Positions 14,751-60,355 of a stretch of 64,000 nt of DNA are shown one piece after another. A program made the position numbers and the translations under genes. The notes under the pieces are model-generated. The model was not told the origin of the DNA. It saw nothing but the letters and a program-made list of their open reading frames with translations, and did not search any database. The stretch is from NCBI GenBank assembly GCA_964524145.1, contig CAZGCA010000019.1, positions 4,133-68,132 on the forward strand. Direction: 5' to 3'. How positions within the stretch are numbered: position 1 is the stretch's first letter; each line of letters opens with the position of its first letter. Origin of the DNA: an uncultured bacterium. GTDB lineage: Bacteria; Hydrogenedentota; CAZGCA01.

Positions 14751-14757
14751 GCCGTTG

Positions 14758-15732: not shown

Positions 15733-15835
15733 GAGTCATCTCCTTGGGCTGCCGTGCCCCGAAAAACAAGGGATCATTCAGCCCTTTCATCAAACTCCGC
15801 ATCTCCGGCACAGTACCTCCGCCGATTCCCTCTGT

Positions 15836-16516
15836 TCAGCCTTCTGCGGCAGCATCCGACAACGAGGCCGGTCTTGTTACCAGCAACGGAAAAACAATAT
15901 CGCTGACGCAGCACGGCAGCACTACCGCGATCACCATGAACACCAGTACCATCCCGCCGAGATGTATCCAGTCGTGCAACCCGAACGACACCAGGTACAG
16001 GATCGAGGCCATGCTGCTGGTCAGCACGTGCGCCGAATGCGAGTAGAGAGTGCCTTTCCGACTCGTCGGCGAAAGTATGAAGCCAACAAAGAGTCCAACC
16101 AACAGGAACGGTACTACCAGAGCTGGATTCTCGATCAGACAGATGTGCAATTCCCCCATTTTCGCATCCAACAACACACCGCTCAGATGAGGGAGGAAGA
16201 TGTCGCTGATTCCGCATATGCCAAGCGCACCGACTGTACCGACGACAAGTGCTTTGAACCAGCGTCGTTCGTGGCGCCAGAACATCGCCGTCGTGGCCGC
16301 TGCACTGAAGAGAACGTGAAGCGGGTGAAAGACGTGGAACAGCATTTGTCCGCCCAACTCGAACCGCTCGGCGTTGCCACCCACAACAGTAACAGCGTAT
16401 GTCATGAACCCAACGGTCGCCATCCCCGCCGCCACACTGAAAACCGTGAACGGGATATGTTCAAACAGCTCTTCGCGAAGCTCGTCCAACCGCTTGCCCA
16501 TCAGTCGCTTCTCCAA
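15836..16516 (-). CDS. Hypothetical polytopic membrane protein with conserved His pairs
   Basis: Five or six predicted TM helices. Motifs 'HVFHPLH' and 'HDWIHLGG'. Function not recognised. Confidence 0.45.
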   Translation of the reverse strand: MEKRLMGKRLDELREELFEHIPFTVFSVAAGMATVGFMTYAVTVVGGNAERFELGGQMLFHVFHPLHVLFSAAATTAMFWRHERRWFKALVVGTVGALGICGISDIFLPHLSGVLLDAKMGELHICLIENPALVVPFLLVGLFVGFILSPTSRKGTLYSHSAHVLTSSMASILYLVSFGLHDWIHLGGMVLVFMVIAVVLPCCVSDIVFPLLVTRPASLSDAAAEG

Positions 16517-22922: not shown

Positions 22923-25900
22923 ATGGCCGAAAGACAGAGATTGTTGGTTGTAATCGCCATCGTGCTGGTCGTTGCAGCGTCCGGGGTCGTGTTGCGCGTG
23001 GGGCGGCACGCAGGTGTCGAGCCGCGCCGAGCGCCTGCTGTGGTAACGGCTGGCAGGCTGGACGAGGATGCGCTGCAACAGACGTCGTGGTGGGCCGAGG
23101 CACAGGAGAACGTTCGGGAATCCGAGTACGCGGTCACGCGGCAGGAGAGGTCTGTCGTCGAAGGCAAGCCGGGCGGGCTTCATGCCGCGAACCGCGCGCA
23201 GAATCTTCGGGCCTACTTTCGGAGGGACGGCGTTGAAGTGGTCCCGCGAACGGGCGATTCCGCCGCGTGGGAATGGAGATGGAAGCTCTCAAGCTACGGA
23301 CGAAGCGACAACACTATCCCCGTTGGCGAGGTGGAGCCCACGCATGAGAGGGATCGGGTCGAGTACGACCGTCCGGGTATCACGGAATGGTACAAGAACA
23401 CGGAAGAAGGGATCGAACAGGGTTTCACCATCCCCGAACGCCTTCAAGGAGATGGCCGCCTTGTTATCGAAGGTATCGTCGGGGCAAGTCTGCATGCTGT
23501 ATCGCCCGATTCGGGCGACCGCGTCCGGTTTCTTGACGGGAACAACGTCGAAGTCCTTCGCTACAGCAGCTTGAAAGCCTTCGACGCGATCGGCAGAGAG
23601 CTGCCCGCCGTGATGCAGCTTGCCAGGAACACCGTTCAGCTCGTGGTCGATGACACCAATGCAATCTATCCGGTCACCGTTGACCCTATCATGACGAGCC
23701 CGCAGTGGATTGCGGGGAGCAACCAGTGGGACGCCAATTCCGGGTGGTCTGTTTCGGGTGCAGGTGATGTGAACGGCGACGGATACAGCGACATAATCGT
23801 CGGGGCGTATCAGTACGACAACGGCCAGGCAGACGAGGGGGCTGCATTCGTGTTTCTGGGCTCCGAGTCCGGAATCGTAGGAGGTCCCCCGGCCGACGCG
23901 GAGGCCGTGCTCGAGTCGAACCAGGCGAATGCGTATTTCGGCTATAGTGTGTCGTGCGCCGGTGACGTCAACGGTGACGGCTATTCCGATGTGATAGTAG
24001 GGGCTGCCGGCCAGGCATACGACATATATGATTTCTCGCCATCAATGACCTACAGTTATGGCGCGTACGACAATGGCGAGGCGAACGAAGGCGGGGCGTT
24101 TGTGTTTCTGGGCTCCCCGTCTGGGATCGTAGGGAGTTCCCCAGGCGATGCCGCCGCCGTGTTGGAATCGAACCAGCCGTACGCGTTTTTCGGCTGGAGC
24201 GTATCGGGCGCAGGTGACGTAAACGGTGACGGGTACGCCGACGTGATCGTCGGGGCGCACCGATACGACCAGGGCCAGACAGATGAAGGCGGGGCGTTCG
24301 TGTTTCTGGGGTCCGCGTCCGGCATAGTGGGGAGTTCTCCGGCCGATGCCGCAGCCGTGTTGGAATCGAACCAGGCGTATGCCTATCTCGGCTGGAGCGT
24401 ATCGTACGCAGGTGACGTAAACGGCGACGGGTACGCAGACGTAATCGTCGGGGCGTATCAGTACGATCACGCCCAGACGGACGAGGGTTCGGCCTTTGTG
24501 TTCCTCGGTTCGGTGTCCGGAATCGTCGGGACCAACCCCGGCAATGCAGCGACGGCGTTGGAGTCCGACAATGAGGCGGCGCAATTCGGATACAGCGTAT
24601 CGGGGGCGGGGGACGTGAACGGTGATGGATACGCTGATGTCATTGTAGGGTCGCCTTACGACGAATACAATCCCGTTGATCCCTATGAGGTGTTGATCGG
24701 ACGCGCGTTCGTGTATCTCGGCAACTCCTCGGGATTGGAAACGGGCCCCGTGTGGACGGCCCAGGGTGTCGACAAAGAGTGCTTTGCATGGGCCGTTTCC
24801 ACAGCCGGAGACATCAACGGAGACGGGTGTGCCGACGTTATCGTCGGCGCCCCTGTCCGGAACGCGTTCCACGGTCCGGAAGACCCCGTACCTGCGGGCC
24901 GTGTGCTGGCATATCTCGGGAACTCGAGCGGTGTCTCTGCTGATCCGGTTTGGAGCGTTGAGAGCGATACGGAAGAAGCCATGCTGGGTTATAGCGTATC
25001 GAGCGCGGGCGACGTCAACGGTGACGGGTACTCCGACATCATCGTCGGCGCCCCTCTCCACAGCATTACGAAATCGAATGAGGGCGGGGCGCTTGTGTTT
25101 CATGGTGGGTGTGAACCTCCTGCCGCGAGACCGGTATGGAGGATTGAGGATTTCGTGGCGTCCGACAACTACGGGGCAGCCGTTGCAGCATTGGGAGACA
25201 TAAACGGAGACGGCTATGACGATGTAACCGTCGGCGACCCCGCCTTCCCCAATTCCGACCCCTCCTCTGAAGGGGCCGGGCGAGTGTATGTGTACCTGGG
25301 AAACAACACAGGGTTGGAGAGCGGGCCGGTATGGAGTGCGCCGGGAGGCTCGTCGGGTTCTGCCGTCGGCGGGGCCGTTTCCGGTGCCGGCGACGTTGAC
25401 GGCGACGGCCACCCCGAACTCATCATTGGAGACCCCGGCTTTGACAATCGTGGCCGTGTCCTTGTCTACGGCTGGAACGGATCGGACCTCTCACCAGTGT
25501 GGAGCGCCGAAGGCGTTGAAGCTGAAGCAGAGTTCGGCGCGTCCGTCGCAGGAGTTGGAGATGTGGACGGGGACGGGTACGCAGATGTGCTGGTCGGCGC
25601 GCCGCTATACGACGACGGGTTGTCCGACCAAGGCCGTGTCTTTGCCTACTTTGGGAGCCCGACGGGCCTCAGCACCTCGGCCAAATGGGTTGCGAGTCCG
25701 GCCCAGGCGGGCGCACGGTTCGGTACCTCGGTTGCGGGAGCGGGCGACGTCAATGGTGACGGCTATGCGGATGTCATCATCGGGGCACCATTTTGTGACG
25801 GTGCATACCCCAATGTCGGGCGTGCGTGCGTGTACCTCGGGAGCGCAGCCGGCCTGCCGGACTCCCCGGCGTGGACTGTTGACGGAGAACAGGAGGACGC

Positions 25901-28900
25901 CCAGTTCGGTTCCCGGGTCACGGGTGTAGGCGACGTCAATGGCGACGGGTACGACGACGTGCTCGTGGCAGCGCCGCTCTATGACGGCATCTTCTTTGAC
26001 GGTGGCCGCATATTCCTGTATCTCGGTAACGCGTCGGGCATCTCAAGCACACCTGTGTCGGAACAAGACGGGGCCCAAGAGGATTCCCAGCTTGGCGCAT
26101 CCGTTGCCGGGGTGGGAGACGTGAGCGGAGACGCTCTGGCAGATGTGCTTGTCGGGGAACCCGGATATGAACTCCCGCCTGAGTACGAGGGGGGTCCAAT
26201 GCAGGTTAACGGGCGGACGGTTCTGTTTGAGGGTTCCCCAGAGGGGCTCTCGTCGGCACCAACCTGGACGTGCGAGGCTGGCGCGTATTACGACATGGGA
26301 CATGCGGTGTCGGGAGCCGGCGACATGAACGGGGATGGAGCTCTCGATATGCTGGTTGGGGTTTCCGGTGACAGCCCTCATCTGTTGAATGGGTACGTGA
26401 GGTATTTTATCGGAAACGGGGGCGACGGGCCTGAGCCTAAACCGGGAATAACGCAACAAAGCGGCGACCCGGTTGGCGCACCGGGCATAGTCGTCGACGA
26501 TGGGGGGATTCGGCTTGTCATGGCAGGAAAGGTGCCACTCGGGCGCGCGGCAGTAAGACTGGAATGGGAGATCGAGCCGTACGGTACAACCTTTGACGGG
26601 TTGGAAATACGGACGAGCGACCCATGGCACGATAGCGGCCTCTTAGGGTATCCGTTTGACAGGCTTATCACCGGATTGGGAGACGCTCACGGTTTCCGCG
26701 TTCGGATGCGCTTGCTTTACGCTCCGCTTGAAGTGCTGCAACCTGGAATCACTCCGCCGCCCAATCCTTCACACAGTCCGTGGTTCTATCCTTGCTGGGC
26801 GACAGTGGGCCCTTCCGATTTTCGGGCCTCCGGCTATCGGCCTCCGACGGACCCCGGCACGGTCGTCGTCACGCAGACTGCTCTGAGCACGGTGGACGAC
26901 ATCCAGTGCACAGTGGACGCATCAAGTACCTCACCAGCCGTGCCGCCGCAACCCGTTCAGTACGAGTTTCTCTGGTCGAACGGAGAGACCAGCGTCGTGC
27001 ATGTGTCCTCATCCTTGACAGACACACTCGACGCCTCTGAAACGAGGAAACATGAGACTTGGACCTGCACGGTGCGGGCATGGGACGGAGTCCAATACTC
27101 GCACGGTGCTTCGTCGGACACGGCTCCTCAAATCGACAACACGGCGCCGTCGCAGGCGACTCTTGACTGGGTGCGCGGTTCCGGTGCGGAACCCTACGAA
27201 TACGGGCCGCTCGATACAGTCCAAATCCAGATAACGGACTACTACGACGCCGACAACGACCTGCTGGTACCGGAGTTCACATGGGAGTACTACAGGGGCG
27301 GCACGTGGAACTCACCGGACTCGACAAACGTGTCGAGCACCACACTGTCGAGCTGGATAGAATCCGGTATTCCGCAGGAAGGCGATGTGTGGAAGTGTAC
27401 GGTGCGGATGTATGATGGTGAAGCCTGGAGCGGCTCGTCGAGTCTCGAGGCAACGATATTGGAGACGGGTGTTGACGAGTTGCTGATGACTATAGCGGTA
27501 ACGCCGCAGAGCGTCACGCTTGGCGAGGGGGTGACGATCACAGGCGGCGTGAGCCCGTCAGCGGACGTAGCGATATCGTTCAAGAGCAAGGAACTAGGTT
27601 CGAGTGGCTTTTCGCGGTCTTTTCCCCAAGGCGTGACCGCGTCCTCGGGCGCATTTAGCAAATTCTTCCTGCCGGACGCGGCGTCGGAAGGCCGATCCGA
27701 CTGGGAGGTGAGAGCGGAATTCAACGGAGACGCCTACTACCGCCCCGCAACGAGCAACGAAGCGTCTTTCGCCGTGGCCAAGGCCGAACCGGAGCTCGAG
27801 CTGGACTTGTCGCATGCCACGGCCTTGGTCAATCTAGGCAACGCAGAGAGTTTCGCTGCGACGGCGACCCTGTCGGTGGACGGCTTTCCCACGGAGCTCA
27901 AACCGTTGTTGTCGGGCAAGACAATCCGGCTGTCGGTGTCGGACCCGGATGGCCAGACGCCGTATGACCCCATCGAGAAGACGACAGACTCCGATGGCGA
28001 GGTGGTGTTAACCGCCCAGGACTTCAGGGACGCATGGGATCCCTCCGATACGGACGGCATCTTCATGGAGTCGGGGGTGTGGAAGTTCAAGGCGGAGTTT
28101 GCGGGCGACGACAACTTCACGCTTGCCTCGACGCCGGACTATGACGAAACCGACGCGCGTCTTATCGTCAAGGAAGGCGCGGGCTACGCGATACTCGTGC
28201 TGGGCCGTCTCGACCAGACCGCAGAAGGTCATGACGCGCACGCCAAGACCACCGACTACATCTACCGCACGCTGGTGGATCGGGCGTTCGACCCGAGCGA
28301 CATCTACTACATGCGCGAGTACCTGGGCGACGAAAAGGAGTCGTCGGATATCGAGGTTGACGACGAGTCGCCGACCAAGGCGGACGTGCAGTATGCAATA
28401 GAGACATGGGCCTACGACGCGATATTCGATTCGCCGGCGACGTTCTACATCATCTTTGCCGACCACGGCAGCGTGGACAAGTTCCACCTGTGGTCTTCGG
28501 AGAACACCGAAGACGATGACCAGTACCTCACGCCCAATGAGCTTGACGGCTATGTTGATCTGCTCGAAACGCAACTTGGAACCGACCCGGAGATAGTGTT
28601 CATCTACGGTGCATGCCACTCGGGGAGTTGCATTCCGACCCTCTCCGCATCGAACCGGGTGCTTATCACGAGCTGCGCTGAGGACGAGATCTCGTACCGT
28701 GGGGTGGACAGCGATCCGACGGACGGTTCGGACGTGCGGGACGGCGAGTTTTTCCTGATGGAGCTGTTCCGTAACGCGGGCGCGGGCAGGTCGTTCGAGG
28801 AGTCGTTCGAGCTTGCCTCGGCCAAGACGGTCGAGTACACGGCGTCGAAGAGCAACGGGGCGTTGGCCGATGAGCCGCAGCACCCGCTGCTCGACGACGA

Positions 28901-31643
28901 TGGAAACGGTGTGGGCACGCCGGGCGCGTCGCTGGGCGCGGTGGGCGCGGACGGCAGCCGTGCATCGAGCATGATCCTGGGGTTGGGCTCGAACGCGGGC
29001 AACACGGTGAGCTGGTTCACGGTGAGCGCGCCGGTATCGATAGATCCCGGCGAAGACATTCCCAGCCCATTGTTCGCGGAGACGACGGGCCGCGCGCTGA
29101 CCGCAGAGGACACGGCGTGGATAGAGGTGAAGACACCGACGTACGACAGTGGCGAGCTGGCCGACTCGGAGTATTCGGAGTTCCAGAAGCAGGCGGAGAT
29201 GGCGGGCCCGATCGCTCCGGGCAGCTCGGAGTCTGTCGGTGAGGAGAAAGTGCGGTTCGAGTGGGCCCAGACCGATCTGGACCCGTACCTGAGCTTCGAC
29301 ACCTCAGGCACGTACAAGGTGTACTACTTCCTGAGAGACGGGACAACAGGCCAGGTGAGTTCGTACCTGGTGACGAACATCTACGTCTCGCTGGCGGACA
29401 ACCAGCCGCCGCAGGCGGTGACGCTGGCGTACCCGGGCGAAGGGGCAGTGTTGAAGAGCACGATATTCTTTGTCTGGGGAGAGAGCAGCGACCCGGAGGG
29501 CGACGCGATAACGTACCGGCTCGAGGTGGCTGAGGACAGCGGGTTCACGACCGGTCTGATAGTCAAGGACGGTATTGCCGGCACGGTGACGCAACTCACC
29601 GCTGCGGACGGCATCGAGGATCTCACGGGCTACTACTGGCGCGTGATCCCGGTGGACACGTACGGAGCGAGCCCGGCGACCAATACGGTTCGCGCGTTCA
29701 GTGTAAACAAGGCCAATCCGGACCTGCAAGGCCTGATAACGGGTACGGTGAAGGATTCGGCGACGGGCGATGCCATTGCAGGTGCGAGCATCACGCTGAC
29801 GCCGGGCTCCCATCCCCTCACGACCTCGACGACGCAGGGAGTGTACTATTTCGCGAACCTCTCGCCGGGACTGTACACGGTAGACGCCTCGGCTTCGGGC
29901 TATTACGATGAGAGTGACGCTGCGAACGTGCCGACGGGCGGTCATGCCGAGGTGAATTTCGAGCTGGCCCTCGAGAGCAACCCGCCAGCGTGTGCTACGA
30001 TACCCGACGTGAGCTTCGATGAAGACGGCACCGACACGAGCATTGATCTCGACGACTATGTGTCCGATGCGGACAACACGGATGCGGAGCTGAGTTGGAC
30101 GTACTCGGGCGCGACGAACGTGACGGTATCGATCCGCTCGACGACCCATATAGTGACGCTCGGTGCCGCGGCGAACTGGTACGGCACCGAGACGATAACG
30201 TTCACCTGTACCGATACCGGCGGATTGTCGGACAGCACCGACGTGGTCGTAACAGTAGACTCCGTCAACGACGATCCGTGGATAGATCCTGCACTACCGA
30301 ATCTGGCTGTGGAGGCGGATGTGGGTCTGCCATACGATCTGACGCAGCACGAACACGATATCGAGGACAGCGACACCGGGCTCATCTGGTCAATCAACGG
30401 TGTCAGCACATCGTTGTTCGATGCCACAATCGATGAGGCCACCGACGAGCTGACCGTCACGCCTGTACCCGGCGCGGAGGGCAGCGATTCCGTGCAGCTT
30501 GTGGTGCAGGATAGCGAGGGTGCCGCGGCGTCGCAGTGGCTCACGGTAACGGTGGCGCAGGACACGGACGACGACGGTATGCCCGACACCTGGGAACGTG
30601 AGCACGGACTGGACACGGGGAGCAACGACGCGTCACAAGACGCCGACGGCGACGGGCTGACCAACCTCGAGGAATACGGTGCCGGCACCGATCCGCAGGA
30701 GGCTGACAGCGACGACGACGGGTACACCGACAAGGAGGAAGTCGATCATGGCACCGATCCCAACGACGAGACGGATACGCCCGCACCCCGGCTGGCGAAC
30801 GTCACGATCGAGCCGCAGGATCCGCACGTGTACACGAGCATACCGGTAACGTTCACGGTCACGGGCGAGATGGACGATGGGGCCACGGCCGATTTGAGCG
30901 CCGCGACGGTGACCTGGGCTGTGGTGTCGGGCGTTGGTGATATCGACCCGGATACAGGCATCTTCGAGAGCGATACGGAGGGCGCAGCAGAAATCTCGGT
31001 TACGGTAGAGTTGGATGGCGTGACGCGGAGCGACACGGTATCGTTCGAGGTCGAGAGCAAATCCGTCCTGACAGTCGGGTCGGATGACATTCAAGGGGAC
31101 GAGCCCGTCTCCATTGCAGTGACGCTGACCTCTGGTGCCATCGATGTTGCCGAGATAGAGTTTACGCTGGTGATAGACTCGCAGGTGGTCGAGGTTGTGA
31201 GCATTGTCGCAGGCGCGCAGGCGGACACTGGCGGCAAGACCGTAGAAGTCTCGCAGGTGGACGCCAACCATCACGATGTCGCTGTTGGTGGAAACAGTGC
31301 AGTGCTGGCCGACGGCGAGATCGTGGTGATCATGCTGGGAGCGGCCGCGAGCGGCGAAATCGGTCACTGCTCTTCGATCGAGCTGCAGGACACGGCGTGC
31401 TACGATCCCGCTGGCGGCGCAGTCCCTGCCGTTGGCATTGGCGGTCGGTGCTGCCTGACGGTGGCATACCTCGCGTGCGACGTCGACGGCAACGGATTCG
31501 TCAACGCTCTGGACGTCCAACTCGTCATCAACGCCGCGCTGGGCGAAGACGTCTCTTGGGACTGCGATGTCGACGGTAACGGGTTCGTCAACGCCCTGGA
31601 CGTCCAACTCGTCATCAACGCCGCGCTGGGGATCGATACGTAG
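22923..31643 (+). CDS. Giant (2906 aa) secreted multi-domain surface protein: 14 FG-GAP repeats, Ig-like domains, clan-CD caspase-fold peptidase domain, CarboxypepD_reg-like/FN3/cadherin-like domains, TSP3-like Ca-binding repeats, cohesin-like domain, C-terminal dockerin
   Basis: Signal/anchor 'LLVVIAIVLVVAASGVVL'. 14 copies of 'FGYSVSGAGDVNGDGYADVIVGA' (FG-GAP). Legumain-like dyad 'IIFADHGS' and 'VFIYGACHSGSC'. 'VNDDP' Ig-like module. 'DTDDDGMPD...DADGDGLTN...DSDDDGYTD'. C-terminal duplicated 'CDVDGNGFVNALDVQLVINAALG' (dockerin type-I-like). Confidence 0.85.
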   Translation: MAERQRLLVVIAIVLVVAASGVVLRVGRHAGVEPRRAPAVVTAGRLDEDALQQTSWWAEAQENVRESEYAVTRQERSVVEGKPGGLHAANRAQNLRAYFRRDGVEVVPRTGDSAAWEWRWKLSSYGRSDNTIPVGEVEPTHERDRVEYDRPGITEWYKNTEEGIEQGFTIPERLQGDGRLVIEGIVGASLHAVSPDSGDRVRFLDGNNVEVLRYSSLKAFDAIGRELPAVMQLARNTVQLVVDDTNAIYPVTVDPIMTSPQWIAGSNQWDANSGWSVSGAGDVNGDGYSDIIVGAYQYDNGQADEGAAFVFLGSESGIVGGPPADAEAVLESNQANAYFGYSVSCAGDVNGDGYSDVIVGAAGQAYDIYDFSPSMTYSYGAYDNGEANEGGAFVFLGSPSGIVGSSPGDAAAVLESNQPYAFFGWSVSGAGDVNGDGYADVIVGAHRYDQGQTDEGGAFVFLGSASGIVGSSPADAAAVLESNQAYAYLGWSVSYAGDVNGDGYADVIVGAYQYDHAQTDEGSAFVFLGSVSGIVGTNPGNAATALESDNEAAQFGYSVSGAGDVNGDGYADVIVGSPYDEYNPVDPYEVLIGRAFVYLGNSSGLETGPVWTAQGVDKECFAWAVSTAGDINGDGCADVIVGAPVRNAFHGPEDPVPAGRVLAYLGNSSGVSADPVWSVESDTEEAMLGYSVSSAGDVNGDGYSDIIVGAPLHSITKSNEGGALVFHGGCEPPAARPVWRIEDFVASDNYGAAVAALGDINGDGYDDVTVGDPAFPNSDPSSEGAGRVYVYLGNNTGLESGPVWSAPGGSSGSAVGGAVSGAGDVDGDGHPELIIGDPGFDNRGRVLVYGWNGSDLSPVWSAEGVEAEAEFGASVAGVGDVDGDGYADVLVGAPLYDDGLSDQGRVFAYFGSPTGLSTSAKWVASPAQAGARFGTSVAGAGDVNGDGYADVIIGAPFCDGAYPNVGRACVYLGSAAGLPDSPAWTVDGEQEDAQFGSRVTGVGDVNGDGYDDVLVAAPLYDGIFFDGGRIFLYLGNASGISSTPVSEQDGAQEDSQLGASVAGVGDVSGDALADVLVGEPGYELPPEYEGGPMQVNGRTVLFEGSPEGLSSAPTWTCEAGAYYDMGHAVSGAGDMNGDGALDMLVGVSGDSPHLLNGYVRYFIGNGGDGPEPKPGITQQSGDPVGAPGIVVDDGGIRLVMAGKVPLGRAAVRLEWEIEPYGTTFDGLEIRTSDPWHDSGLLGYPFDRLITGLGDAHGFRVRMRLLYAPLEVLQPGITPPPNPSHSPWFYPCWATVGPSDFRASGYRPPTDPGTVVVTQTALSTVDDIQCTVDASSTSPAVPPQPVQYEFLWSNGETSVVHVSSSLTDTLDASETRKHETWTCTVRAWDGVQYSHGASSDTAPQIDNTAPSQATLDWVRGSGAEPYEYGPLDTVQIQITDYYDADNDLLVPEFTWEYYRGGTWNSPDSTNVSSTTLSSWIESGIPQEGDVWKCTVRMYDGEAWSGSSSLEATILETGVDELLMTIAVTPQSVTLGEGVTITGGVSPSADVAISFKSKELGSSGFSRSFPQGVTASSGAFSKFFLPDAASEGRSDWEVRAEFNGDAYYRPATSNEASFAVAKAEPELELDLSHATALVNLGNAESFAATATLSVDGFPTELKPLLSGKTIRLSVSDPDGQTPYDPIEKTTDSDGEVVLTAQDFRDAWDPSDTDGIFMESGVWKFKAEFAGDDNFTLASTPDYDETDARLIVKEGAGYAILVLGRLDQTAEGHDAHAKTTDYIYRTLVDRAFDPSDIYYMREYLGDEKESSDIEVDDESPTKADVQYAIETWAYDAIFDSPATFYIIFADHGSVDKFHLWSSENTEDDDQYLTPNELDGYVDLLETQLGTDPEIVFIYGACHSGSCIPTLSASNRVLITSCAEDEISYRGVDSDPTDGSDVRDGEFFLMELFRNAGAGRSFEESFELASAKTVEYTASKSNGALADEPQHPLLDDDGNGVGTPGASLGAVGADGSRASSMILGLGSNAGNTVSWFTVSAPVSIDPGEDIPSPLFAETTGRALTAEDTAWIEVKTPTYDSGELADSEYSEFQKQAEMAGPIAPGSSESVGEEKVRFEWAQTDLDPYLSFDTSGTYKVYYFLRDGTTGQVSSYLVTNIYVSLADNQPPQAVTLAYPGEGAVLKSTIFFVWGESSDPEGDAITYRLEVAEDSGFTTGLIVKDGIAGTVTQLTAADGIEDLTGYYWRVIPVDTYGASPATNTVRAFSVNKANPDLQGLITGTVKDSATGDAIAGASITLTPGSHPLTTSTTQGVYYFANLSPGLYTVDASASGYYDESDAANVPTGGHAEVNFELALESNPPACATIPDVSFDEDGTDTSIDLDDYVSDADNTDAELSWTYSGATNVTVSIRSTTHIVTLGAAANWYGTETITFTCTDTGGLSDSTDVVVTVDSVNDDPWIDPALPNLAVEADVGLPYDLTQHEHDIEDSDTGLIWSINGVSTSLFDATIDEATDELTVTPVPGAEGSDSVQLVVQDSEGAAASQWLTVTVAQDTDDDGMPDTWEREHGLDTGSNDASQDADGDGLTNLEEYGAGTDPQEADSDDDGYTDKEEVDHGTDPNDETDTPAPRLANVTIEPQDPHVYTSIPVTFTVTGEMDDGATADLSAATVTWAVVSGVGDIDPDTGIFESDTEGAAEISVTVELDGVTRSDTVSFEVESKSVLTVGSDDIQGDEPVSIAVTLTSGAIDVAEIEFTLVIDSQVVEVVSIVAGAQADTGGKTVEVSQVDANHHDVAVGGNSAVLADGEIVVIMLGAAASGEIGHCSSIELQDTACYDPAGGAVPAVGIGGRCCLTVAYLACDVDGNGFVNALDVQLVINAALGEDVSWDCDVDGNGFVNALDVQLVINAALGIDT

Positions 31644-34089: not shown

Positions 34090-34118
34090 TTGACAAATCT
34101 GCGCCTGCCTGCTATGAT
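34090..34118 (+). promoter_or_regulatory. Near-consensus sigma70 promoter TTGACA-17-TATGAT driving the second giant gene
   Basis: TTGACA at 34090-34095, 17-nt spacer, TATGAT at 34113-34118. Implies a 5'-UTR of about 170 nt before ATG 34293. Confidence 0.5.
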
Positions 34119-34292
34119 CTTATATAAGAGGGAAGTTCGACCATTGTAAGTGTTGAACGTGGGAGCCATCTAATGAGGCCATCGGCATCCCCGCCGTTGA
34201 CTGCGGCAGGGACGGACAGCCGCCATGACCCTACGCTTCAAGAACCCTTGGCGAAGAGTGCGTCGTGACGGCTATAGAGGGAGGATTCTACC

Positions 34293-37200
34293 ATGAACAG
34301 ACACCCCATTCTGGCTGCTGTTGTCATCGCGCTGTGCCCTGCAGCATTTGCGGACACCTGGTACGTTGACGCCGAGAACAGCTTCCCGATTCAAAGCGGC
34401 AGAAGCTGGACCACGGCGTTTACGGCCATCCAGGCCGGTATCGATGCCGCGTCGGACGGCGATGACGTCATCGTCGCCGAGGGCACGTACGTCGAAAACG
34501 TCAACTTCAACGGGAAGAATATCGTCCTGCAATCGACCGACCCGGCGAACCCCGACGTGGTCGCCAACACTGTCATCGATGGCGAACGGTATAGTTCGGT
34601 GGTGACCTTCTCCGGGGAAGAAGCAGAGGAGTGCGTCCTTTCCGGGTTCACCATCACCTGCGCCGACAGCTATTGGGATTACCGCCGCGGTATCAGCGGA
34701 AACGGGACGCTGGCCACCATCGAAAACAACACGATCTCACACAACTTAGCGATGTCTCTTCACTATTTCTTCGGGGAAGAGACTATGGACAACTACGGCG
34801 GTGGAGTCTGCGATTGCGACGGCATCATCCAGAAAAACACCATCACCCGCAACGCAGCGGGCCATTCTGGTGGCGGGCTCGCTTATTGTGACGGCATCAT
34901 CCGGAACAACACGATCAGCGACAATACCGCGTACGGAGGCGATTGGTTTTACGGGATTGTCGACGGCGGTGGAGGCGCACTCTATTCGTGCAACGGCACG
35001 GTCGAAAACAACATAATCTCGGGCAACTCAGTCGACGGCACTTTTTCGTATGGCGGTTTCGGTGGCGGGCTCTTCGAGTGCGACGGTACCGTACAGAACA
35101 ACGCTATCTGCGATAACTCGGCCTACTATGGTGGTGGGCTCTACAGTTGTGACGGTACCGTCCTGAACAACACCGTCACAAACAACACCGCTCACGGGTA
35201 CGGCGGCGGACTGTATCTCTCCTACGGACTGATAAGCAACTGCATCGTGTGGGCGAACGCTGCACCAGACGGGGCACAGCTTGACAATTGCAGCATGCCG
35301 CGGTATAGCTGCATACAGGATTGGACCGAAGGCGGCACGGGCAACATAGCAGATGACCCCAGATTCATCGATCTATCTGCCGGCGACTACCATTTGCAGC
35401 CCGATTCTCCCTGTATTGATACCGGCAACATTGACGATCTTTATGTTGCTGCCGCCGCCGGTTGCGTCAACGACATTGATGGAGAATGCCGGCTGGCCGG
35501 TGGTTCTGTGGATATAGGCAGTGACGAGCACAATAGTCCCGCAGACACTGACGGCGACCTGCTACCCGACAGCGATGAGATCGCCCTGGGCCTCAGTCCA
35601 TACGACGCGGATACAGACTCCGACGGCTTGATGGATGGATTGGAGCTCTTGCGGAGAACTGATCCATCCTCATACGATACCCCCGCCGGCATGGTGGTTC
35701 TCGCAGGCATCTCCTCGATCCAGGCTGCGCTTTCCCTAGCGTTTCCCTCCGAAACCATTATCGTCTATCCGGGTACCTATTATGAGAACCTCCGTTTCCC
35801 GGGGAAAGACGTCGTCTTGCGTTCGACCGCACCCACCAGCCCCGGCATCGTCGGCTCAACCATCATCGATGCCGGTCGGAACGGTCCTGCCGTCATGTTC
35901 CATGGCACGGAATCGTCCGATTGCGTCTTATCGGGATTCACCATCACAAACGGCACCGCGTCCGAAGGCGGCGGTATCCGCGGGTACGGAACCCTGGCCA
36001 CCATCGAGCACTGTACCATCTCGGGTAACTACTCGGAAGACAATGGCGGTGGCTTGTATGACTGCCGCGGCACCATTCGGAACAACATCATTTCGGACAA
36101 CTCGGCTCGTTATAACGGCGGCGGCCTCTCCCGTTGCGACGGAGCAATCGAGAACAACACCATCTCGGGCAACACCGCCGATTACGAATTCGGCGATGGC
36201 GGCGGGTTGCATAACTGCAGCGGCACTATCCGGAACAACACCATCTCAGAGAACGTGGCCGGAGTGGACGGTGATGGCGGGGGGCTGTTCAGATGCGATG
36301 CATTGATCCTGGGCAACACCATCACTGACAACTGGGCAGAATATGGTGGCGGACTCGCAGACTGCAACGGCACCATACAGAACAATACAATCGCGGGCAA
36401 CTCCGCGGGACGAAACGGCGGAGGGCTAAGCGGATGCGATGATGCCATCCTGAACAACACCATTACAGACAACTCGGCCGCTAATGGCGGCGGGCTCAGC
36501 CGGTGCAATGGCGCAATCCTCAACAATACTATTGCCGGCAACTTTGCCGTGTACGATGGCGGCGGATTGGACGCTTGCAGCGGTGCAATCCTGAACAACA
36601 CGATCGCGGACAACTCTGCCCGTACCGGTGATGGCCTCCATCGCTGCGACGGGTTTATCGCGAACTGTATCATCTGGGGAGACTCCCCCGACAGCGGCCC
36701 GCTTTTCAGTTCCAACATGCCTCTCCATAGCTGTATTCAGAACTGGACTGATGGCGGTGCGGGCAACATCTCCGACGACCCAAGGTTCGTGGACGCGCCC
36801 GGTGGAAACTACCATTTGAGCTCGGACTCGCCCTGCATTGATGCGGGCAGCCTTGGCCATGCTTATCTGCCTGAGTCATGGGTTGGCGACATCGACGGAG
36901 AGTGCCGGTTGGCAGGCAGCTCTATAGATATGGGCAGTGATGAGCAAAACAGCTCTGTGGACAATGATAGCGATTTGCTTCCTGACATCGATGAGACCGC
37001 CTCAGGAAGCGACCCCTACAACCCCGATACGGACGGGGATGGCGTACCTGATGGGTTGGAGGTCTTCCGAGGAACCGACCCGACCGTTTATACGACGGCT
37101 TCGGGCATTTCCGTTCCCGCAGACCTCCCTTCGATACAGACGGCGATCATGGTGGCGTTTCCTGGAGAGCTCATAACCGTCTCCCCGGGAACCTATTACG

Positions 37201-39176
37201 AGAACCTTCGCTTCATGGGGAAAGACGTCATCCTGCGCTCGACCGACGCCTTAGATCCCGCTGTAGTCGACTCGACAATCATCGACGGCAGCGAAGCAGA
37301 TTCGGTGGTAACGTTCGGCGGCGCCGAATCACCTGATTGCGTTCTCTCAGGGTTCACCATCACGAACGGCCGCGGCTACTACGGCGGAGTCAATGGAAAT
37401 GGGACTCTGGCTACGATCGAGAACAACACCGTGTCGGCCAATTCCGCTTTTAGGATCTACAGCGGATGGGTTTATCTCGGCGGGAGGGGTGCCGGCCTCT
37501 ACGATTGCGACGGTACCGTGAGGAACAACACTGTCTCGGCTAACTCCTGTTCCGGAAACAATACTGCCGGTGGCGGGTTGTACGGGTGCGACGGCATCAT
37601 CGAGGCCAATACCATATCGGGTAACTCAGCCTTTGAAGGCGGTGGTTTGTACGATTGCGACGGCGTCATCGATGACAATACGCTGTCAGGTAACTCGGGC
37701 GGCAACGGTGGTGGCCTGTGCGAATGTGACGGCGTCATCCAGAGTAACACGATCTCCGATAACTCGGTTCGTGGCCGTGGTGGCGGGCTGTACAACTGCC
37801 AGGCCACTGTCCAGCAGAACATCATCTTAGGCAACTCCGCGGAGAACCACGGTGGCGGAGTTGACGGGTGCGACGGGACCATCCGGAACAACACGATCTC
37901 GGACAACTCCGCGGGATATGCAGGCGGCGGCCTGTGGGGCTGCCACGGCGTTGTCGAGAATAACACTATCTCGGGCAACTCCGCGAGCGACAGTGGCGGT
38001 GGGCTTTGGGCCTGCAACGGCACCATCCGGAACAACACGATCTATGGCAACCACGCCGACAGCGCGGGCGGCGGGCTGGCGTGGTGTGACGAAGCTGTTA
38101 TCAAGAACTGCGCTATCTGGCAGAATGCTGCGCCTGAAGGGGCTCAGTTGTACGAGTGCGTCGATCCTTCTTACAGTTGCATCCAGGACTGGACAGGTGG
38201 CGGGGAAGGAAACATCTCCGACGATCCATTGCTTGTAAACCCGGACAACGGCGATTTCCACCTTGATCCGGACTCTCCCTGCATCGACGGAGGCGGCCTT
38301 GTGGACGGTTTGACCGACGACTTTGAGGGCGACCCGAGGCCGATTGATGCCGTCGGTGACCCTCGCGGCGACGGTTCTGACTTCGACATTGGCGCTGATG
38401 AGTTCTCTGATGACATCGATTCGGACGGCGACGGGATAGTCGATGCCGACGAAGGGCCGGGCGATGCGGATGGTGATGGAGTTGCCAACTATCTCGACGC
38501 GGATTCGGACGGCGACACCGTTCCCGATGAGATGGAACGCGCGGACGATTCGGACGGCGACGGGCTTGCCAATTATCTCGACACGGACTCGGATGGAGAT
38601 GGCATGCCCGATGAGGACGAAGGCGCTGACGACCTCGACGGCGACGGAACGCCAAACTTCCTGGATCTCGACAGCGACGAGAACGGTATCGCGGATTCTG
38701 ACGAAGGCGCGGGCGATCCGGATCGGGATGGCATTCCCGACTACCGGGACCTCGACAATGACGGAGACGGCATCTCGGACAACGATGAAGGGACGGATGA
38801 CCCGGATGCTGACGGAGTCCCTAACTACCTTGACACGGACAGCGATGGCGACGGCATTCCAGACCTCGAAGAAGGCACCGGCGACCCCGACAACGACGGC
38901 ACGCCGAGCTATCTCGACACCGATTCGGACGGAGACGGCGCTTTGGACGTGGAAGAAGCCGCGTTCGGCACCGACCCATACGACGCGGCGGATTCGCCGT
39001 TTCCGTTTGGCGACGTCAACAGATCGCGCCGTGCGGACGCCATCGATGTCCAACTCGTGATCAATGCGATACTTGCCCTGCCGGTGGATTACGATTGCGA
39101 TATCAATGGGGATGGCGCGGTCAATGTCGCCGACCTGCAGCTTGCCATCAACGCGGCGCTGTGGATCGAATCCTAG
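34293..39176 (+). CDS. Giant (1627 aa) secreted protein: three tandem ~430-aa right-handed parallel beta-helix modules, TSP3-like Ca-binding repeats, C-terminal dockerin-like module
   Basis: Signal 'MNRHPILAAVVIALCPAAFA'. Three modules each start 'GTYYENLRF(P/M)GKDV(V/I)LRST...CVLSGFTITNG', followed by repeated 'NNTISGNSA..GGGL..C.G.I.NNTI' beta-helix rungs and a conserved 'C(I/V)QDWTxGGxGNIxDDPxF...DYHL..DSPCID.G' cap. Long run of 'DSDGDG.PD'. Ends 'CDINGDGAVNVADLQLAINAALW'. Confidence 0.85.
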   Translation: MNRHPILAAVVIALCPAAFADTWYVDAENSFPIQSGRSWTTAFTAIQAGIDAASDGDDVIVAEGTYVENVNFNGKNIVLQSTDPANPDVVANTVIDGERYSSVVTFSGEEAEECVLSGFTITCADSYWDYRRGISGNGTLATIENNTISHNLAMSLHYFFGEETMDNYGGGVCDCDGIIQKNTITRNAAGHSGGGLAYCDGIIRNNTISDNTAYGGDWFYGIVDGGGGALYSCNGTVENNIISGNSVDGTFSYGGFGGGLFECDGTVQNNAICDNSAYYGGGLYSCDGTVLNNTVTNNTAHGYGGGLYLSYGLISNCIVWANAAPDGAQLDNCSMPRYSCIQDWTEGGTGNIADDPRFIDLSAGDYHLQPDSPCIDTGNIDDLYVAAAAGCVNDIDGECRLAGGSVDIGSDEHNSPADTDGDLLPDSDEIALGLSPYDADTDSDGLMDGLELLRRTDPSSYDTPAGMVVLAGISSIQAALSLAFPSETIIVYPGTYYENLRFPGKDVVLRSTAPTSPGIVGSTIIDAGRNGPAVMFHGTESSDCVLSGFTITNGTASEGGGIRGYGTLATIEHCTISGNYSEDNGGGLYDCRGTIRNNIISDNSARYNGGGLSRCDGAIENNTISGNTADYEFGDGGGLHNCSGTIRNNTISENVAGVDGDGGGLFRCDALILGNTITDNWAEYGGGLADCNGTIQNNTIAGNSAGRNGGGLSGCDDAILNNTITDNSAANGGGLSRCNGAILNNTIAGNFAVYDGGGLDACSGAILNNTIADNSARTGDGLHRCDGFIANCIIWGDSPDSGPLFSSNMPLHSCIQNWTDGGAGNISDDPRFVDAPGGNYHLSSDSPCIDAGSLGHAYLPESWVGDIDGECRLAGSSIDMGSDEQNSSVDNDSDLLPDIDETASGSDPYNPDTDGDGVPDGLEVFRGTDPTVYTTASGISVPADLPSIQTAIMVAFPGELITVSPGTYYENLRFMGKDVILRSTDALDPAVVDSTIIDGSEADSVVTFGGAESPDCVLSGFTITNGRGYYGGVNGNGTLATIENNTVSANSAFRIYSGWVYLGGRGAGLYDCDGTVRNNTVSANSCSGNNTAGGGLYGCDGIIEANTISGNSAFEGGGLYDCDGVIDDNTLSGNSGGNGGGLCECDGVIQSNTISDNSVRGRGGGLYNCQATVQQNIILGNSAENHGGGVDGCDGTIRNNTISDNSAGYAGGGLWGCHGVVENNTISGNSASDSGGGLWACNGTIRNNTIYGNHADSAGGGLAWCDEAVIKNCAIWQNAAPEGAQLYECVDPSYSCIQDWTGGGEGNISDDPLLVNPDNGDFHLDPDSPCIDGGGLVDGLTDDFEGDPRPIDAVGDPRGDGSDFDIGADEFSDDIDSDGDGIVDADEGPGDADGDGVANYLDADSDGDTVPDEMERADDSDGDGLANYLDTDSDGDGMPDEDEGADDLDGDGTPNFLDLDSDENGIADSDEGAGDPDRDGIPDYRDLDNDGDGISDNDEGTDDPDADGVPNYLDTDSDGDGIPDLEEGTGDPDNDGTPSYLDTDSDGDGALDVEEAAFGTDPYDAADSPFPFGDVNRSRRADAIDVQLVINAILALPVDYDCDINGDGAVNVADLQLAINAALWIES

Positions 39177-39526: not shown

Positions 39527-39556
39527 TTGACAGGTTGATCGGGGTTGTGATAGTAT
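39527..39556 (+). promoter_or_regulatory. Sigma70-like promoter (TTGACA-18-TAGTAT) for the nadX-rplU-rpmA-obg-proB operon
   Basis: Perfect -35 at 39527-39532. The -10-like hexamer is TAGTAT (4 of 6 match TATAAT). About 120 nt upstream of nadX ATG 39677. Confidence 0.35.
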
Positions 39557-39676
39557 TCTCTCTAAAGAAACGTCGAGGGTGAGGTGTGTGCTCCGAACGG
39601 TGGGCCTTCAGGTTTCGAGGGCCCACAGTTTTTGGGCAAAACGGCGCGATTGACCAAGATACGCGAGCAACAACTG

Positions 39677-59292: not shown

Positions 59293-59300
<8 letters not shown>
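58419..59300 (-). CDS. DUF58 protein (MoxR-associated, VWA-like)
   Basis: 'GLSVEFADYRDYVYGDDPRFVDWNVFGRLDRLFLKLF...ILVDTSGSM'. Confidence 0.8.
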
Positions 59301-60300
<1,000 letters not shown>

Positions 60301-60355
60301 TTCGTTTCTCCTCAACTCTGTCGGCTACGTGATACGAACGAAGAGGTTCCTTCGT

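What the first reader, a model, noticed from the sequence alone, without database searches (positions are those of the whole stretch)
34293..39176. Second giant protein built from three tandem ~430-aa parallel beta-helix modules plus a long thrombospondin-type-3-like Asp repeat array
Each module restarts with 'GTYYENLRF(P/M)GKDV(V/I)LRST' and ends with a conserved 'CIQ(D/N)WT.GG.GNI.DDP.F...DYHL..DSPCID.G' cap. This indicates internal triplication of a ~1.3-kb unit. The C-terminal array of about 12 'D.DGDG.P(D/N)' repeats should bind many Ca2+ ions. The long antisense ORFs here are by-products. The triplicated DNA may also be a recombination or assembly hazard.
Basis: seen in the sequence. Interest (0 to 1): 0.55.

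Follow-up and report, generated by a model that had tools for sequence, protein, structure and literature searches.

The report
Secreted triple beta-helix, calcium-repeat, dockerin protein
This gene encodes a large, very acidic secreted protein made of three old, diverged beta-helix modules, a calcium-binding aspartate array and a C-terminal dockerin; it is an ordinary member of a very large uncharacterised family of bacterial surface proteins, and its repeats are no hazard for assembly or recombination.

Summary
ORF 34293-39176 (+) encodes 1627 aa with three homologous modules of 430-472 aa, which are 51-56% identical in protein and about 72% in DNA. About 13 DxDxDG-type loops follow.

- a Sec signal peptide
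- a choice-of-anchor Q cap closing each helix (NCBIfam NF041518)
- bacterial TSP3 linkers between the modules
- a C-terminal dockerin, 54% identical to the dockerin of the neighbouring 2906-aa FG-GAP protein, which also carries a cohesin confirmed by fold

The triplication is ancient. Each module is closest to modules at the same position in other proteins, and all 120 best homologues have 2-6 modules. A profile of the module matches about 119,000 protein clusters at E<=1e-10.

The "assembly or recombination hazard" idea is rejected. The longest exact DNA word shared between modules is 19 nt. The same 1627-aa protein was also assembled in at least three other metagenome assemblies, with 0-2 synonymous differences.

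The fold search gives only generic right-handed beta-helix matches. The central coils carry no conserved catalytic-type residues. The most likely function is a non-catalytic, Ca2+-stiffened binding or adhesion protein held on the cell surface by its dockerin. It is a new member of a known kind, and interest is low.

The parts
34090..34118 (+). Promoter-like site TTGACA-17 nt-TATGAT (11 of 12 matches, with TG before the -10), about 175 nt upstream of the start codon
   Evidence: This is a consensus match only; the scan found no more such sites than in shuffled sequence.
34280..34284 (+). Shine-Dalgarno GGAGG, 8 nt before the ATG
   Evidence: read directly from the sequence
34293..39176 (+). Coding sequence of 1627 aa. 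The mature protein is about 165 kDa and very acidic (D+E 270, K+R 51).
   Evidence: more than 1000 homologues
34293..34352 (+). Sec signal peptide MNRHPILAAVVIALCPAAFA, with probable cleavage AFA|D
   Evidence: sequence pattern: basic n-region, hydrophobic core, AxA site. Inferred; no predictor was run.
34353..35642 (+). Module 1 (aa 21-450): N-cap with GTYVEN, about 6 GGGL..C.G.I.NN.I..N.A coils, C-cap, TSP3 linker
35643..37058 (+). Module 2 (aa 451-922): N-cap with GTYYEN, about 10 coils, C-cap, TSP3 linker
   Evidence: AlphaFold model with pLDDT 85.3 and pTM 0.82
37059..38402 (+). Module 3 (aa 923-1370): N-cap, about 9 coils, and the terminal-type C-cap (FEGDPRP...GDGSDFDIGADE)
35310..35534 (+). 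C-cap of module 1 (CIQDWT...DYHL..DSPCID...DIDGECR...DIGSDE), choice-of-anchor Q type
   Evidence: NF041518 matched two stretches, but only the one at aa 1311-1371 was printed. This cap is assigned by alignment to cap 3.
36732..36950 (+). C-cap of module 2, choice-of-anchor Q type
   Evidence: assigned by alignment to cap 3
38178..38402 (+). C-cap of module 3, choice-of-anchor Q domain (best NF041518 stretch, aa 1311-1371)
   Evidence: 35.2 bits, cut-off 25
35538..35642 (+). Linker 1 between modules, with two bacterial TSP3-type DxDxD loops (DTDGDLLPDSDE...DTDSDGLMDGLE)
36954..37058 (+). Linker 2 between modules, TSP3_bac (best Pfam stretch at aa 912-931)
   Evidence: 25.1 bits, cut-off 25
38412..38957 (+). 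Asp array with 13 DxDxDG-type loops (aa 1374-1555), built from a 28-aa / 84-nt double unit repeated about 6.5 times; 33% Asp
   Evidence: (D5)
39009..39173 (+). C-terminal dockerin-like module. The first loop is degenerate (DVNRSRRADAID) and the second is canonical (DINGDGAVNVAD).
   Evidence: Dockerin_1 scores 24.7 bits (cut-off 22.9) when the tail is scanned alone and 22.0 bits in the whole protein. It is 54% identical to the neighbour's dockerin, E 2e-14. Weak PDB hits are all dockerins.
31068..31403 (+). Cohesin domain near the C-terminus of the neighbouring 2906-aa FG-GAP protein; a candidate docking partner
   Evidence: Pfam Cohesin 24.8 bits, cut-off 24.1. AlphaFold pLDDT 89.6. Foldseek match to cohesins, E 1.7e-11, target-normalised TM 0.80.
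31479..31622 (+). Dockerin of the neighbouring giant protein, of the same type as the target's

Best explanation
The gene encodes an exported, modular, non-enzymatic surface or extracellular protein.

Architecture:
- A Sec signal peptide directs export.
- Three right-handed parallel beta-helix rods follow. Each has an N-cap, 6-10 idealised 23-24-aa coils (GGGLxxCDGxIxNNTIxxNSA, one Cys per coil) and a choice-of-anchor Q C-cap.
- Short TSP3-type Asp loops join the rods.
- A stalk of about 180 aa with 13 DxDxDG loops comes next.
- A dockerin ends the protein.

Proposed mechanism:
- Ca2+ fills the Asp loops and the dockerin EF-hand-like loops, which stiffens the linkers and the stalk.
- The dockerin plugs into a cohesin on another surface protein. 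The nearest candidate is the cohesin of the 2906-aa FG-GAP protein encoded 2.6 kb upstream.
- The three variable-surfaced rods are thereby displayed away from the cell. There they bind an extracellular ligand multivalently, most likely a polysaccharide or another cell or particle surface.

Shown: the architecture, the fold class, family membership, the cohesin fold of the neighbour, the reproducibility of the copy number, and the age of the triplication.

Inferred: export, Ca2+ binding, the cohesin-dockerin pairing, and a binding rather than catalytic role.
For: Architecture.

Fold: the AlphaFold model of module 2 has pLDDT 85.3 and shows regular short-strand coils from residue 17 to 392. Foldseek returns only generic right-handed beta-helix proteins at 10-19% identity and TM 0.3-0.48. 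They include the non-enzymatic adhesin PfbA and phage tailspikes.

No catalytic signature: the invariant or nearly invariant charged and aromatic columns of a 20-module alignment lie only in the N-cap (Y46, E48, D76, E90) and the C-cap (W345, Q353, W368, R422, D429, E434). Apart from an Asp after the coil Cys in 14 of this protein's 25 coils, the conserved coil positions are G, L, C, I, N, T, S and A, which are structural, and the exposed positions vary. No lyase or hydrolase Pfam family matches.

Surface display: relatives carry the same body with different C-terminal ends: a dockerin, a "...FYRIE" domain, a "FDxLNFDP...VESL" domain, or none. This is the pattern that gives choice-of-anchor domains their name, as surface-exposed proteins with alternative anchors (preprint 10.1101/2023.03.06.531300).

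Dockerin and cohesin. The same dockerin type ends many unrelated secreted proteins with RHS, CarboxypepD_reg, FG-GAP, Ig or PKD bodies.

Independent gene: it has its own promoter-like site and is flanked by housekeeping genes.
Against: - No biochemical data exist for any family member.
- The best fold matches are enzymes: the AlgE4 epimerase A-module and PL6 lyases. An active site confined to one coil could be blurred in an alignment of modules with different coil numbers.
- The first dockerin loop is degenerate, and the Pfam score sits at the threshold (22.0 or 24.7 bits against 22.9).
- The cohesin partner is guessed from proximity only. The closest protein with the same architecture, P0030, has no cohesin gene in its 17-kb locus.
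- The C-terminal array fails the TSP3_bac cut-off.
- The organism's envelope type and the route across any outer membrane are unknown.
Confidence: 0.6

Rival explanations
1. It is a multi-catalytic polysaccharide-active enzyme, such as a lyase, C-5 epimerase or glycosidase. Each beta-helix module would be a catalytic domain, and the dockerin would recruit the enzyme into a cellulosome-like complex.
For: - The top Foldseek hits are the AlgE4 and AlgE6 mannuronan epimerase A-modules, PL6 alginate lyases and chondroitinase B. These enzymes depend on Ca2+.
- Dockerins classically sit on enzymes.
- The window also encodes a SASA carbohydrate esterase and a polysaccharide-deacetylase-like protein.
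Against: - The fold matches are weak (E about 3e-4, TM 0.3-0.48, 13-19% identity) and equally include adhesins and tailspikes.
- No CAZy-type Pfam family matches; only the generic Beta_helix model does.
- PDB sequence and profile searches find nothing beyond the cap motif.
- The central coils of 20 aligned modules have no conserved acidic, basic or aromatic cluster.
- The coils are unusually idealised.
Confidence: 0.2
2. It is a structural envelope, matrix or coat protein. It would form an S-layer-like or capsule-like, highly acidic, Ca2+-crosslinked hydrated layer, with no specific ligand. It would polymerise with other proteins that carry a dockerin or a cohesin.
For: - The charge is extremely acidic (D+E 270, K+R 51) and there are many Ca2+-type loops.
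- There are many paralogues per genome in related metagenome-assembled genomes.
- Small signal-peptide-cohesin-dockerin proteins exist that could act as connectors.
- A dockerin-bearing halomucin-like coat protein has been proposed in Cloacimonadota (PMC8542988).
Against: There is no evidence on abundance or lattice formation. The variable exposed coil positions and the many diverged paralogues fit diversified binding better than a uniform lattice.
Confidence: 0.15
3. The three-module structure is an assembly artefact, a collapsed or expanded repeat, or an unstable recombining locus.
For: Repeated 1.3-1.4-kb units exist.
Against: - Modules are only about 72% identical in DNA, and the longest shared exact word is 14-19 nt. 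That is shorter than typical assembler k-mers and than what efficient homologous recombination is generally held to need (background knowledge).
- An identical 1627-aa product lies on four contigs from at least three other assemblies (two JGI, one ENA), with 0-2 synonymous differences and matching flanks.
Confidence: 0.02

Closest known systems
Choice-of-anchor Q / right-handed parallel beta-helix repeat proteins of uncultured bacteria (NCBIfam NF041518, Pfam PF13229), for example P0001, P0007 and P0030 and loci in Candidatus Sumerlaeota genomes
   Same: - The same module: N-cap GTYxEN, GGGL..C coils and the CIQxW...DSPCID cap.
- The same tandem arrangement of 2-6 modules, with TSP3 linkers.
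- P0030 also has the Asp array and the same dockerin.
   Different: No close orthologue exists; the best identity is 48-51%. Most relatives end in other C-terminal domains rather than a dockerin. None has been characterised.
Mannuronan C-5 epimerase AlgE4 A-module (2pyg), PL6 alginate lyases and chondroitinase B
   Same: Right-handed parallel beta-helix fold, and an association with Ca2+.
   Different: Identity is 13-19% and TM 0.3-0.48. There is no family-level sequence match and no conserved catalytic residues. The Ca2+-type repeats are DxDxDG loops, not the RTX-type R-modules of the AlgE enzymes (the latter from background knowledge).
Beta-helical adhesins: the chlamydial Pmp passenger domains (GGA[ILV]/FxxN coils, PMC11166332) and pneumococcal PfbA (4mr0)
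   Same: Long secreted beta-helices built from short Gly-rich coils (here GGGL plus IxxN). The presumed role is adhesion. PfbA appears in the fold hits.
   Different: There is no autotransporter beta-barrel and no LPXTG motif, and no match to a Pmp model in the NCBIfam scan. Anchoring would be through a dockerin.
Type I cohesin-dockerin pairs, including non-cellulosomal ones (Archaeoglobus fulgidus cohesin 2xdh; Peer et al. 2009, as cited in PMC8542988)
   Same: - A dockerin-like tail of about 55-70 aa whose two halves each pair a DxNxDG-type loop (the first degenerate) with a helix-forming stretch.
- The neighbour's cohesin model matches 2xdh and clostridial type I cohesins at target-normalised TM of about 0.8.
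   Different: The cargo is not a recognisable enzyme, and there is no scaffoldin with tandem cohesins in the window. The first Ca2+ loop is degenerate. Binding is untested.
Thrombospondin type 3 repeats and bacterial TSP3 repeats (PF02412, PF18884)
   Same: Consecutive DxDxDG Asp loops that are expected to wrap Ca2+. The linkers between modules reach the PF18884 cut-off.
   Different: The C-terminal array scores below the PF18884 cut-off and has no PF02412 hit. It lacks the Cys pairs of eukaryotic TSP3 (0 Cys in the array; the comparison rests on background knowledge).
[quoted passage not shown]
   Same: They offer a functional analogy: concatenated domains of the choice-of-anchor class that bind cellulose or chitin. 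The authors suggest that concatenation raises avidity.
   Different: The domain family is different (choice-of-anchor A, not Q), and the proteins are eukaryotic. This is an analogy only.

Membership tests
Pfam PF13229 Beta_helix (right-handed parallel beta-helix, PbH1 repeats) | Score above the gathering threshold (25.9 bits) and a beta-helix fold | tested here: met
   100.1 bits in 5 stretches. AlphaFold beta-helix with pLDDT 85. Foldseek hits are all right-handed beta-helices.
NCBIfam NF041518 choice-of-anchor Q domain | Score above the curated cut-off (25 bits), with the domain at the C-terminal end of the beta-helix | tested here: met
   35.2 bits in 2 stretches, the best at aa 1311-1371. 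The motif recurs at aa 340, 814 and 1296.
NCBIfam NF041518 choice-of-anchor Q domain | Relatives carry alternative C-terminal anchor or sorting domains | tested here: met
   The C-termini of the 120 homologues fall into dockerin, "FYRIE", "FDxLNFDP..VESL", TM-like and bare types. These tail types were classified by eye and by regular expression, and most have no Pfam match.
Pfam PF00404 Dockerin_1 | Score above the gathering threshold (22.9 bits) | tested here: inconclusive
   22.0 bits in the whole protein and 24.7 bits when the tail is scanned alone. The tail is 54% identical to the neighbour's dockerin, which scores 35.5 bits.
Pfam PF00404 Dockerin_1 | Two duplicated segments, each with a 12-residue Ca2+ loop (D1, N/D3, D/N5, D12) followed by a helix | tested here: inconclusive
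   The second loop, DINGDGAVNVAD, is canonical. The first, DVNRSRRADAID, keeps positions 1, 3 and 12 but has S at position 5 and R at position 6.
Pfam PF00404 Dockerin_1 | Ca2+-dependent binding to a cohesin | not testable with these tools
   A cohesin is present 2.6 kb upstream, but no tool for predicting complexes was available.
Pfam PF18884 bacterial TSP3 repeat | Score above the gathering threshold (25 bits) | tested here: inconclusive
   The whole protein scores 25.1 bits, owing to the linker between modules at aa 912-931. The C-terminal array alone scores 19.7 bits.
Pfam PF02412 eukaryotic thrombospondin type 3 repeat | A match to the HMM, and Cys-containing repeats | tested here: not met
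   No hit at E<=1. The array has no Cys.
NosD family (TIGR04247) | Score above the cut-off (300 bits) | tested here: not met
   47.9 bits; only generic PbH1 similarity.
Polysaccharide lyases and epimerases with a beta-helix fold (PL1, PL3, PL6, PL9; AlgE) | A family-level sequence match and a conserved catalytic or Ca2+-site constellation in the groove | tested here: not met
   No such Pfam family at E<=0.1. No PDB sequence hit. No conserved charged residues in the central coils. Structural similarity is at fold level only.
Autotransporter or Pmp-type beta-helix adhesins | A C-terminal beta-barrel translocator, or a match to a Pmp repeat model | tested here: not met
   No autotransporter or Pmp family in the Pfam or NCBIfam scans. 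The C-terminus is a dockerin.

The most novel reading that the evidence does not exclude
In this uncultured lineage, which is related to Hydrogenedentota or Sumerlaeota, dockerins and cohesins would build a non-cellulosomal surface assembly of giant non-enzymatic proteins, not an enzyme complex. The triple beta-helix protein would dock onto the cohesin of the adjacent FG-GAP, legumain-like giant. That giant could in turn chain head-to-tail through its own dockerin, giving a Ca2+-dependent adhesive or predatory surface apparatus.
Probability: 0.2. Interest if true: 0.5.

Novelty: new member of a known kind. Interest (0 to 1): 0.22.

Why it matters
Mostly it does not. This is one more member of a very large, annotated but uncharacterised class of bacterial surface proteins.

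Three points have modest value:
- Repeated protein modules need not endanger an assembly. The useful test is the longest exact DNA word shared between the repeats, together with recovery of the same gene in independent assemblies.
- The multi-module layout is ancestral and specific to module position across the family.
- Two giant secreted proteins lie 2.6 kb apart. Both end in the same type of dockerin, and one also carries a genuine cohesin. That gives a concrete, testable pair for studying non-cellulosomal cohesin-dockerin systems in candidate phyla.

Tried and rejected
- An exact 46-nt search of GTDB representative genomes found nothing, so the source genome is not among them.
- PDB sequence searches with the whole protein and with the module profile gave no informative relative. 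The only hit was the cap motif in 9rx2, an entry called "Parallel beta-helix repeat protein".
- An exact look-up of the Obg protein failed. Obg homologues gave only about 50-53% identity to named Hydrogenedentes proteins. By contrast, the beta-helix family is concentrated in Sumerlaeota genomes. The phylum therefore stays unresolved.
- The cluster look-up returned no names or organisms.
- A paper search for the sample identifiers found nothing.
- The Sumerlaeota genomics paper does not mention dockerins or adhesins.
- Pfam found nothing in the alternative C-terminal domains of homologues.
- I considered and rejected NosD membership, eukaryotic TSP3, autotransporter or Pmp membership, recent triplication, and assembly artefact. 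The reasons are in the membership test and the rival explanations.
- A lipoprotein signal (IALC) was considered. Leu at position -1 makes it unlikely, so I prefer signal peptidase I cleavage at AFA|D. This is an inference.
Full report
**Observation**

The window contains an ORF at 34293..39176 on the + strand, 1627 aa with an ATG start. GGAGG lies 8 nt upstream of the start. A strong sigma-70-like site, TTGACA-17-TATGAT, lies at 34090-34118.

GTY[YV]EN lies at aa 64, 494 and 966, and CIQ[DN]WT lies at aa 340, 814 and 1296. The exact string GTYYENLRF... occurs only in modules 2 and 3.

Direct-repeat analysis finds families spaced 1284-1446 nt apart, and 16-21 copies of a 64-68-nt unit spaced about 69-72 nt apart. 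The shorter unit corresponds to the individual beta-helix coils.

I cut the protein into aa 21-450, 451-922 and 923-1370. These modules are 51-56% identical in protein and about 72% in DNA over aligned columns. They score 249-357 bits against each other. The period is 1.29-1.45 kb.

**Anatomy**

- **Signal peptide.** The N-terminus MNRHPILAAVVIALCPAAFA|DTW has the form of a Sec signal peptide. This is read from the sequence and is an inference.
- **Modules.** Each module has three parts:
  - an N-cap (..IQ.AI....GD.I.V..GTY.EN..F.GK...L.S)
  - a run of idealised 23-24-aa coils
  - a C-cap
- **Coils.** The coil consensus is GGGL-x-x-C-D-G-x-I-x-N-N-T-I-x-x-N-S-A. There are about 6, 10 and 9 coils in modules 1, 2 and 3. 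Of 25 coils, 23 have the Cys.
- **Beta-helix.** Pfam Beta_helix scores 100 bits.
- **C-cap.** The cap (S-C-I-Q-D-W-T-G-G-x-G-N-I-x-D-D-P-x-F...D-Y-H-L...D-S-P-C-I-D) is the choice-of-anchor Q domain, NF041518, at 35.2 bits against a cut-off of 25.
- **Linkers.** Modules 1-2 and 2-3 are joined by linkers of about 35 aa, each with two bacterial TSP3-type loops (PF18884, 25.1 bits, at the cut-off).
- **Asp array.** After module 3 come 13 DxDxDG-type loops (aa 1374-1555). They alternate between "DSDGDGxPDxDE" and "DxDxDGxPNYLD" in a 28-aa / 84-nt double unit. A 190-aa stretch (aa 1371-1560) holds 61 Asp.
- **Dockerin.** The last 55 residues or so are a dockerin. Scanned alone, the tail scores 24.7 bits against a cut-off of 22.9. 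Its weak PDB hits are all cellulosomal dockerins.
- **Charge.** The mature protein is about 165 kDa and very acidic (D+E 270, K+R 51).

Overlapping antisense and alternative-frame ORFs have no Pfam match.

**Structure**

I aligned module 2 with its two sibling modules and 17 modules cut from homologues (alignment A1). AlphaFold gave a confident model (pLDDT 85.3, pTM 0.82). It shows the regular short-strand pattern of a parallel beta-helix from residue 17 to 392. The loop at residues 401-437 has low confidence.

Foldseek against the PDB returned only generic right-handed beta-helix proteins. They were the AlgE4 and AlgE6 A-modules, PL6 lyases, chondroitinase B, phage tailspikes, Pel9A and the adhesin PfbA. 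E was 3e-4 or weaker, TM 0.3-0.48 and identity 10-19%. The fold class is therefore established, but no enzyme family is.

In A1, the invariant or nearly invariant charged and aromatic residues lie only in the caps. The conserved coil positions are structural (G, L, C, I, N, A), and the exposed positions vary. I read this as evidence against a conserved active site and in favour of diversified binding surfaces. This is an inference.

**Family**

The protein has more than 1000 homologues at E<=1e-10 among 8000 scored candidates. None is closer than 48-51% identity. The few that carry names are called "choice-of-anchor Q domain-containing protein" or "right-handed parallel beta-helix repeat-containing protein".

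An HMM built from the three modules shows that every one of the 120 best hits has 2-6 modules. The counts are 55 with three, 35 with four, 12 with five and 8 with six. The median spacing is 406 aa. This ranking favours multi-module proteins, because the query itself has three modules.

A profile of A1, searched exhaustively against 1.84 billion representative proteins, matches the following numbers of clusters:

| E-value threshold | Clusters matched |
|---|---|
| 1e-3 | 203,433 |
| 1e-10 | 118,748 |
| 1e-30 | 38,205 |

The matches include proteins of up to 7749 aa with 20-30 matched stretches.

In GTDB genomes the family is concentrated in Candidatus Sumerlaeota (BRC1) metagenome-assembled genomes. 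A single genome can carry many paralogues: at least 7, 9 and 11 loci in three genomes. Weaker relatives occur in Planctomycetota and Cloacimonadota.

**Age of the triplication**

Each module's best BLAST matches are modules at the same position in other proteins. Module 1 matches first modules, and module 3 matches last modules. The sibling modules rank only 24th to 140th. The tandem layout therefore predates the divergence of this protein from many relatives. It is not a recent internal triplication.

**Assembly and recombination hazard**

The longest exact DNA word shared by any two modules is 14-19 nt.

The exact 1627-aa product is also on record on four contigs from at least three other assemblies. 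These are JGI 3300028837 (a 73.7-kb contig), ENA ERZ25073496 and JGI 3300008517. Over the 4884-nt gene they differ from the window at 0, 1 or 2 positions. Both variable positions are synonymous and lie in the Asp array (38600 and 38861). The 900-nt flanks match, with at most two mismatches.

The copy number of three is reproducible, and the hazard idea is rejected.

**Anchoring**

Homologues share the body but end differently:
- Most end in a domain of about 70 aa finishing "...KFYRIE".
- Another group ends "...FDxLNFDP...VESL".
- Several end in dockerins (P0013, P0015, P0030, P0037, P0055, P0098, P0118).
- Some stop just after the cap.

Pfam does not recognise the first two tail types. This pattern of a shared body with alternative ends is what gives choice-of-anchor domains their name, as surface-exposed proteins with alternative anchors (preprint 10.1101/2023.03.06.531300).

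The target's dockerin is 54% identical (E 2e-14) to that of the 2906-aa protein at 22923..31643. That neighbour has 12 FG-GAP repeats, a CarboxypepD_reg domain, a legumain-like Peptidase_C13 match, TSP3 repeats, a cohesin and a dockerin.

The neighbour's cohesin is genuine. The AlphaFold model has pLDDT 89.6 and shows a beta-sandwich followed by two dockerin helices. Foldseek matches the non-cellulosomal Archaeoglobus cohesin 2xdh and type I clostridial cohesins at E about 1e-11 and target-normalised TM of about 0.8.

The same dockerin type (helix D-V-Q-L-V-I-N-A-A-L-G) ends many unrelated proteins. Their bodies include RHS, FG-GAP, CarboxypepD_reg, Ig and PKD domains, and several come from Candidatus Hydrogenedentes genomes. 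Small proteins with a hydrophobic, signal-peptide-like N-terminus, a cohesin and a dockerin also exist.

I therefore propose that the dockerin tethers the beta-helix protein to a cohesin-bearing surface protein. The neighbour is the nearest candidate. This is an inference from co-location and domain logic. P0030 has the closest architecture and comes from the same JGI sample, and its 17-kb locus contains no cohesin gene.

**Context and organism**

The gene lies between housekeeping genes. Upstream are an epimerase and a PLP-dependent, cysteine-synthase-like enzyme. Downstream are aspartate dehydrogenase, L21, L27, Obg and ProB. It appears to be its own transcription unit.

Obg has one 96% relative. 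Identity then drops to 60% for unnamed proteins and to about 50-53% for named Candidatus Hydrogenedentes proteins. The organism is an uncultured bacterium near Hydrogenedentota or Sumerlaeota, and the phylum is unresolved.

**Verdict**

The added mechanistic worry about recombination or assembly is wrong, and "triplication" should be read as an ancestral multi-module architecture.

The most likely function has confidence of about 0.6. It is a secreted, Ca2+-stiffened, multivalent binding or adhesion protein, displayed through a dockerin.

The main rival is a multi-catalytic polysaccharide enzyme, at about 0.2. The fold-level similarity to AlgE and PL6 enzymes keeps this rival open.

This is a new member of a known, very large and uncharacterised kind. 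Interest is low (0.22). The only lead with some novelty is a possible non-cellulosomal cohesin-dockerin assembly of giant surface proteins.

Noticed in passing
window 22923-31643 (+): A neighbouring 2906-aa secreted giant. It has 12 FG-GAP repeats, a CarboxypepD_reg domain, a legumain-like Peptidase_C13 match, a Big_9 domain, TSP3 repeats, then a fold-confirmed cohesin directly followed by its own dockerin. This arrangement could allow self-chaining or an intramolecular clasp.
   Followed up: partly
homologues P0004, P0007, P0005 and others (C-terminal ~70 aa), and P0001, P0006 (C-terminal ~150 aa): Two recurrent C-terminal domains of family members have no Pfam match. One ends '...W.S.PG..Y.VWSC.DL..G.W.EE....S.G..T.W.D......KFYRIE'. 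The other ends '...YDLYFYPP..LVG....FD.LNFDP.DA..G.L.L..V.VESL'. They may be unrecognised sorting or anchor domains.
   Followed up: partly
proteins P0243, P0244, P0248, P0250, P0275 (217-226 aa, from metagenomes): Small proteins consisting only of a signal-peptide-like N-terminus, one cohesin and one dockerin of the same type as in the window. They could act as connectors or polymerise.
   Followed up: no
window 39527-39640 (+): A promoter-like site (39527-39556) is followed by a 10-bp GC-rich hairpin and a T-run (39600-39626), just upstream of or overlapping the start of the aspartate-dehydrogenase, L21, L27 and Obg gene string. Gene callers disagree on the start: 303 aa from 39584 or 287 aa from 39632. 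This may be a leader or attenuator. Rfam has no match.
   Followed up: no
locus L084 (JGI 3300028837, contig Ga0309839_1002003), gene 10001-16300: P0030 (2099 aa) comes from the same sample as one of the contigs that carry the target. It has the same layout (three modules, a longer Asp array, the same double dockerin) at 45% identity, and may be a paralogue from the same population (untested). It lies next to a GGDEF/HDOD gene.
   Followed up: partly
window 1231-3771 (-): An 845-aa ORF that combines multihaem cytochrome c matches (Cytochrome_C7, MtrC/MtrF-like) with a C-terminal cytochrome b561 / Ni_hydr_CYTB membrane domain. This is an unusual fusion and suggests extracytoplasmic electron transfer.
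   Followed up: no
window 5479-7821 (-): A 779-aa fusion of an Nramp metal transporter (aa 41-409) with an ApbE flavin-transferase domain (aa 481-760).
   Followed up: no
window 56578-63238 (-): BatA/VWA-type proteins of 645 aa and 959 aa, the larger also carrying a GATase1-like domain. This is an aerotolerance (Bat)-like cluster.
   Followed up: no
window 38600 and 38861: The only nucleotide differences between the window and the other assemblies of this gene are two synonymous sites. Both lie inside the Asp-repeat array.
   Followed up: yes
window 43633-44655 (+) and 49017-50945 (-): A 340-aa protein with two CarboxypepD_reg domains, and a T2SSE/PilB-type secretion ATPase with an MshEN domain. 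Whether either is linked to export of the giant proteins is unknown.
   Followed up: no
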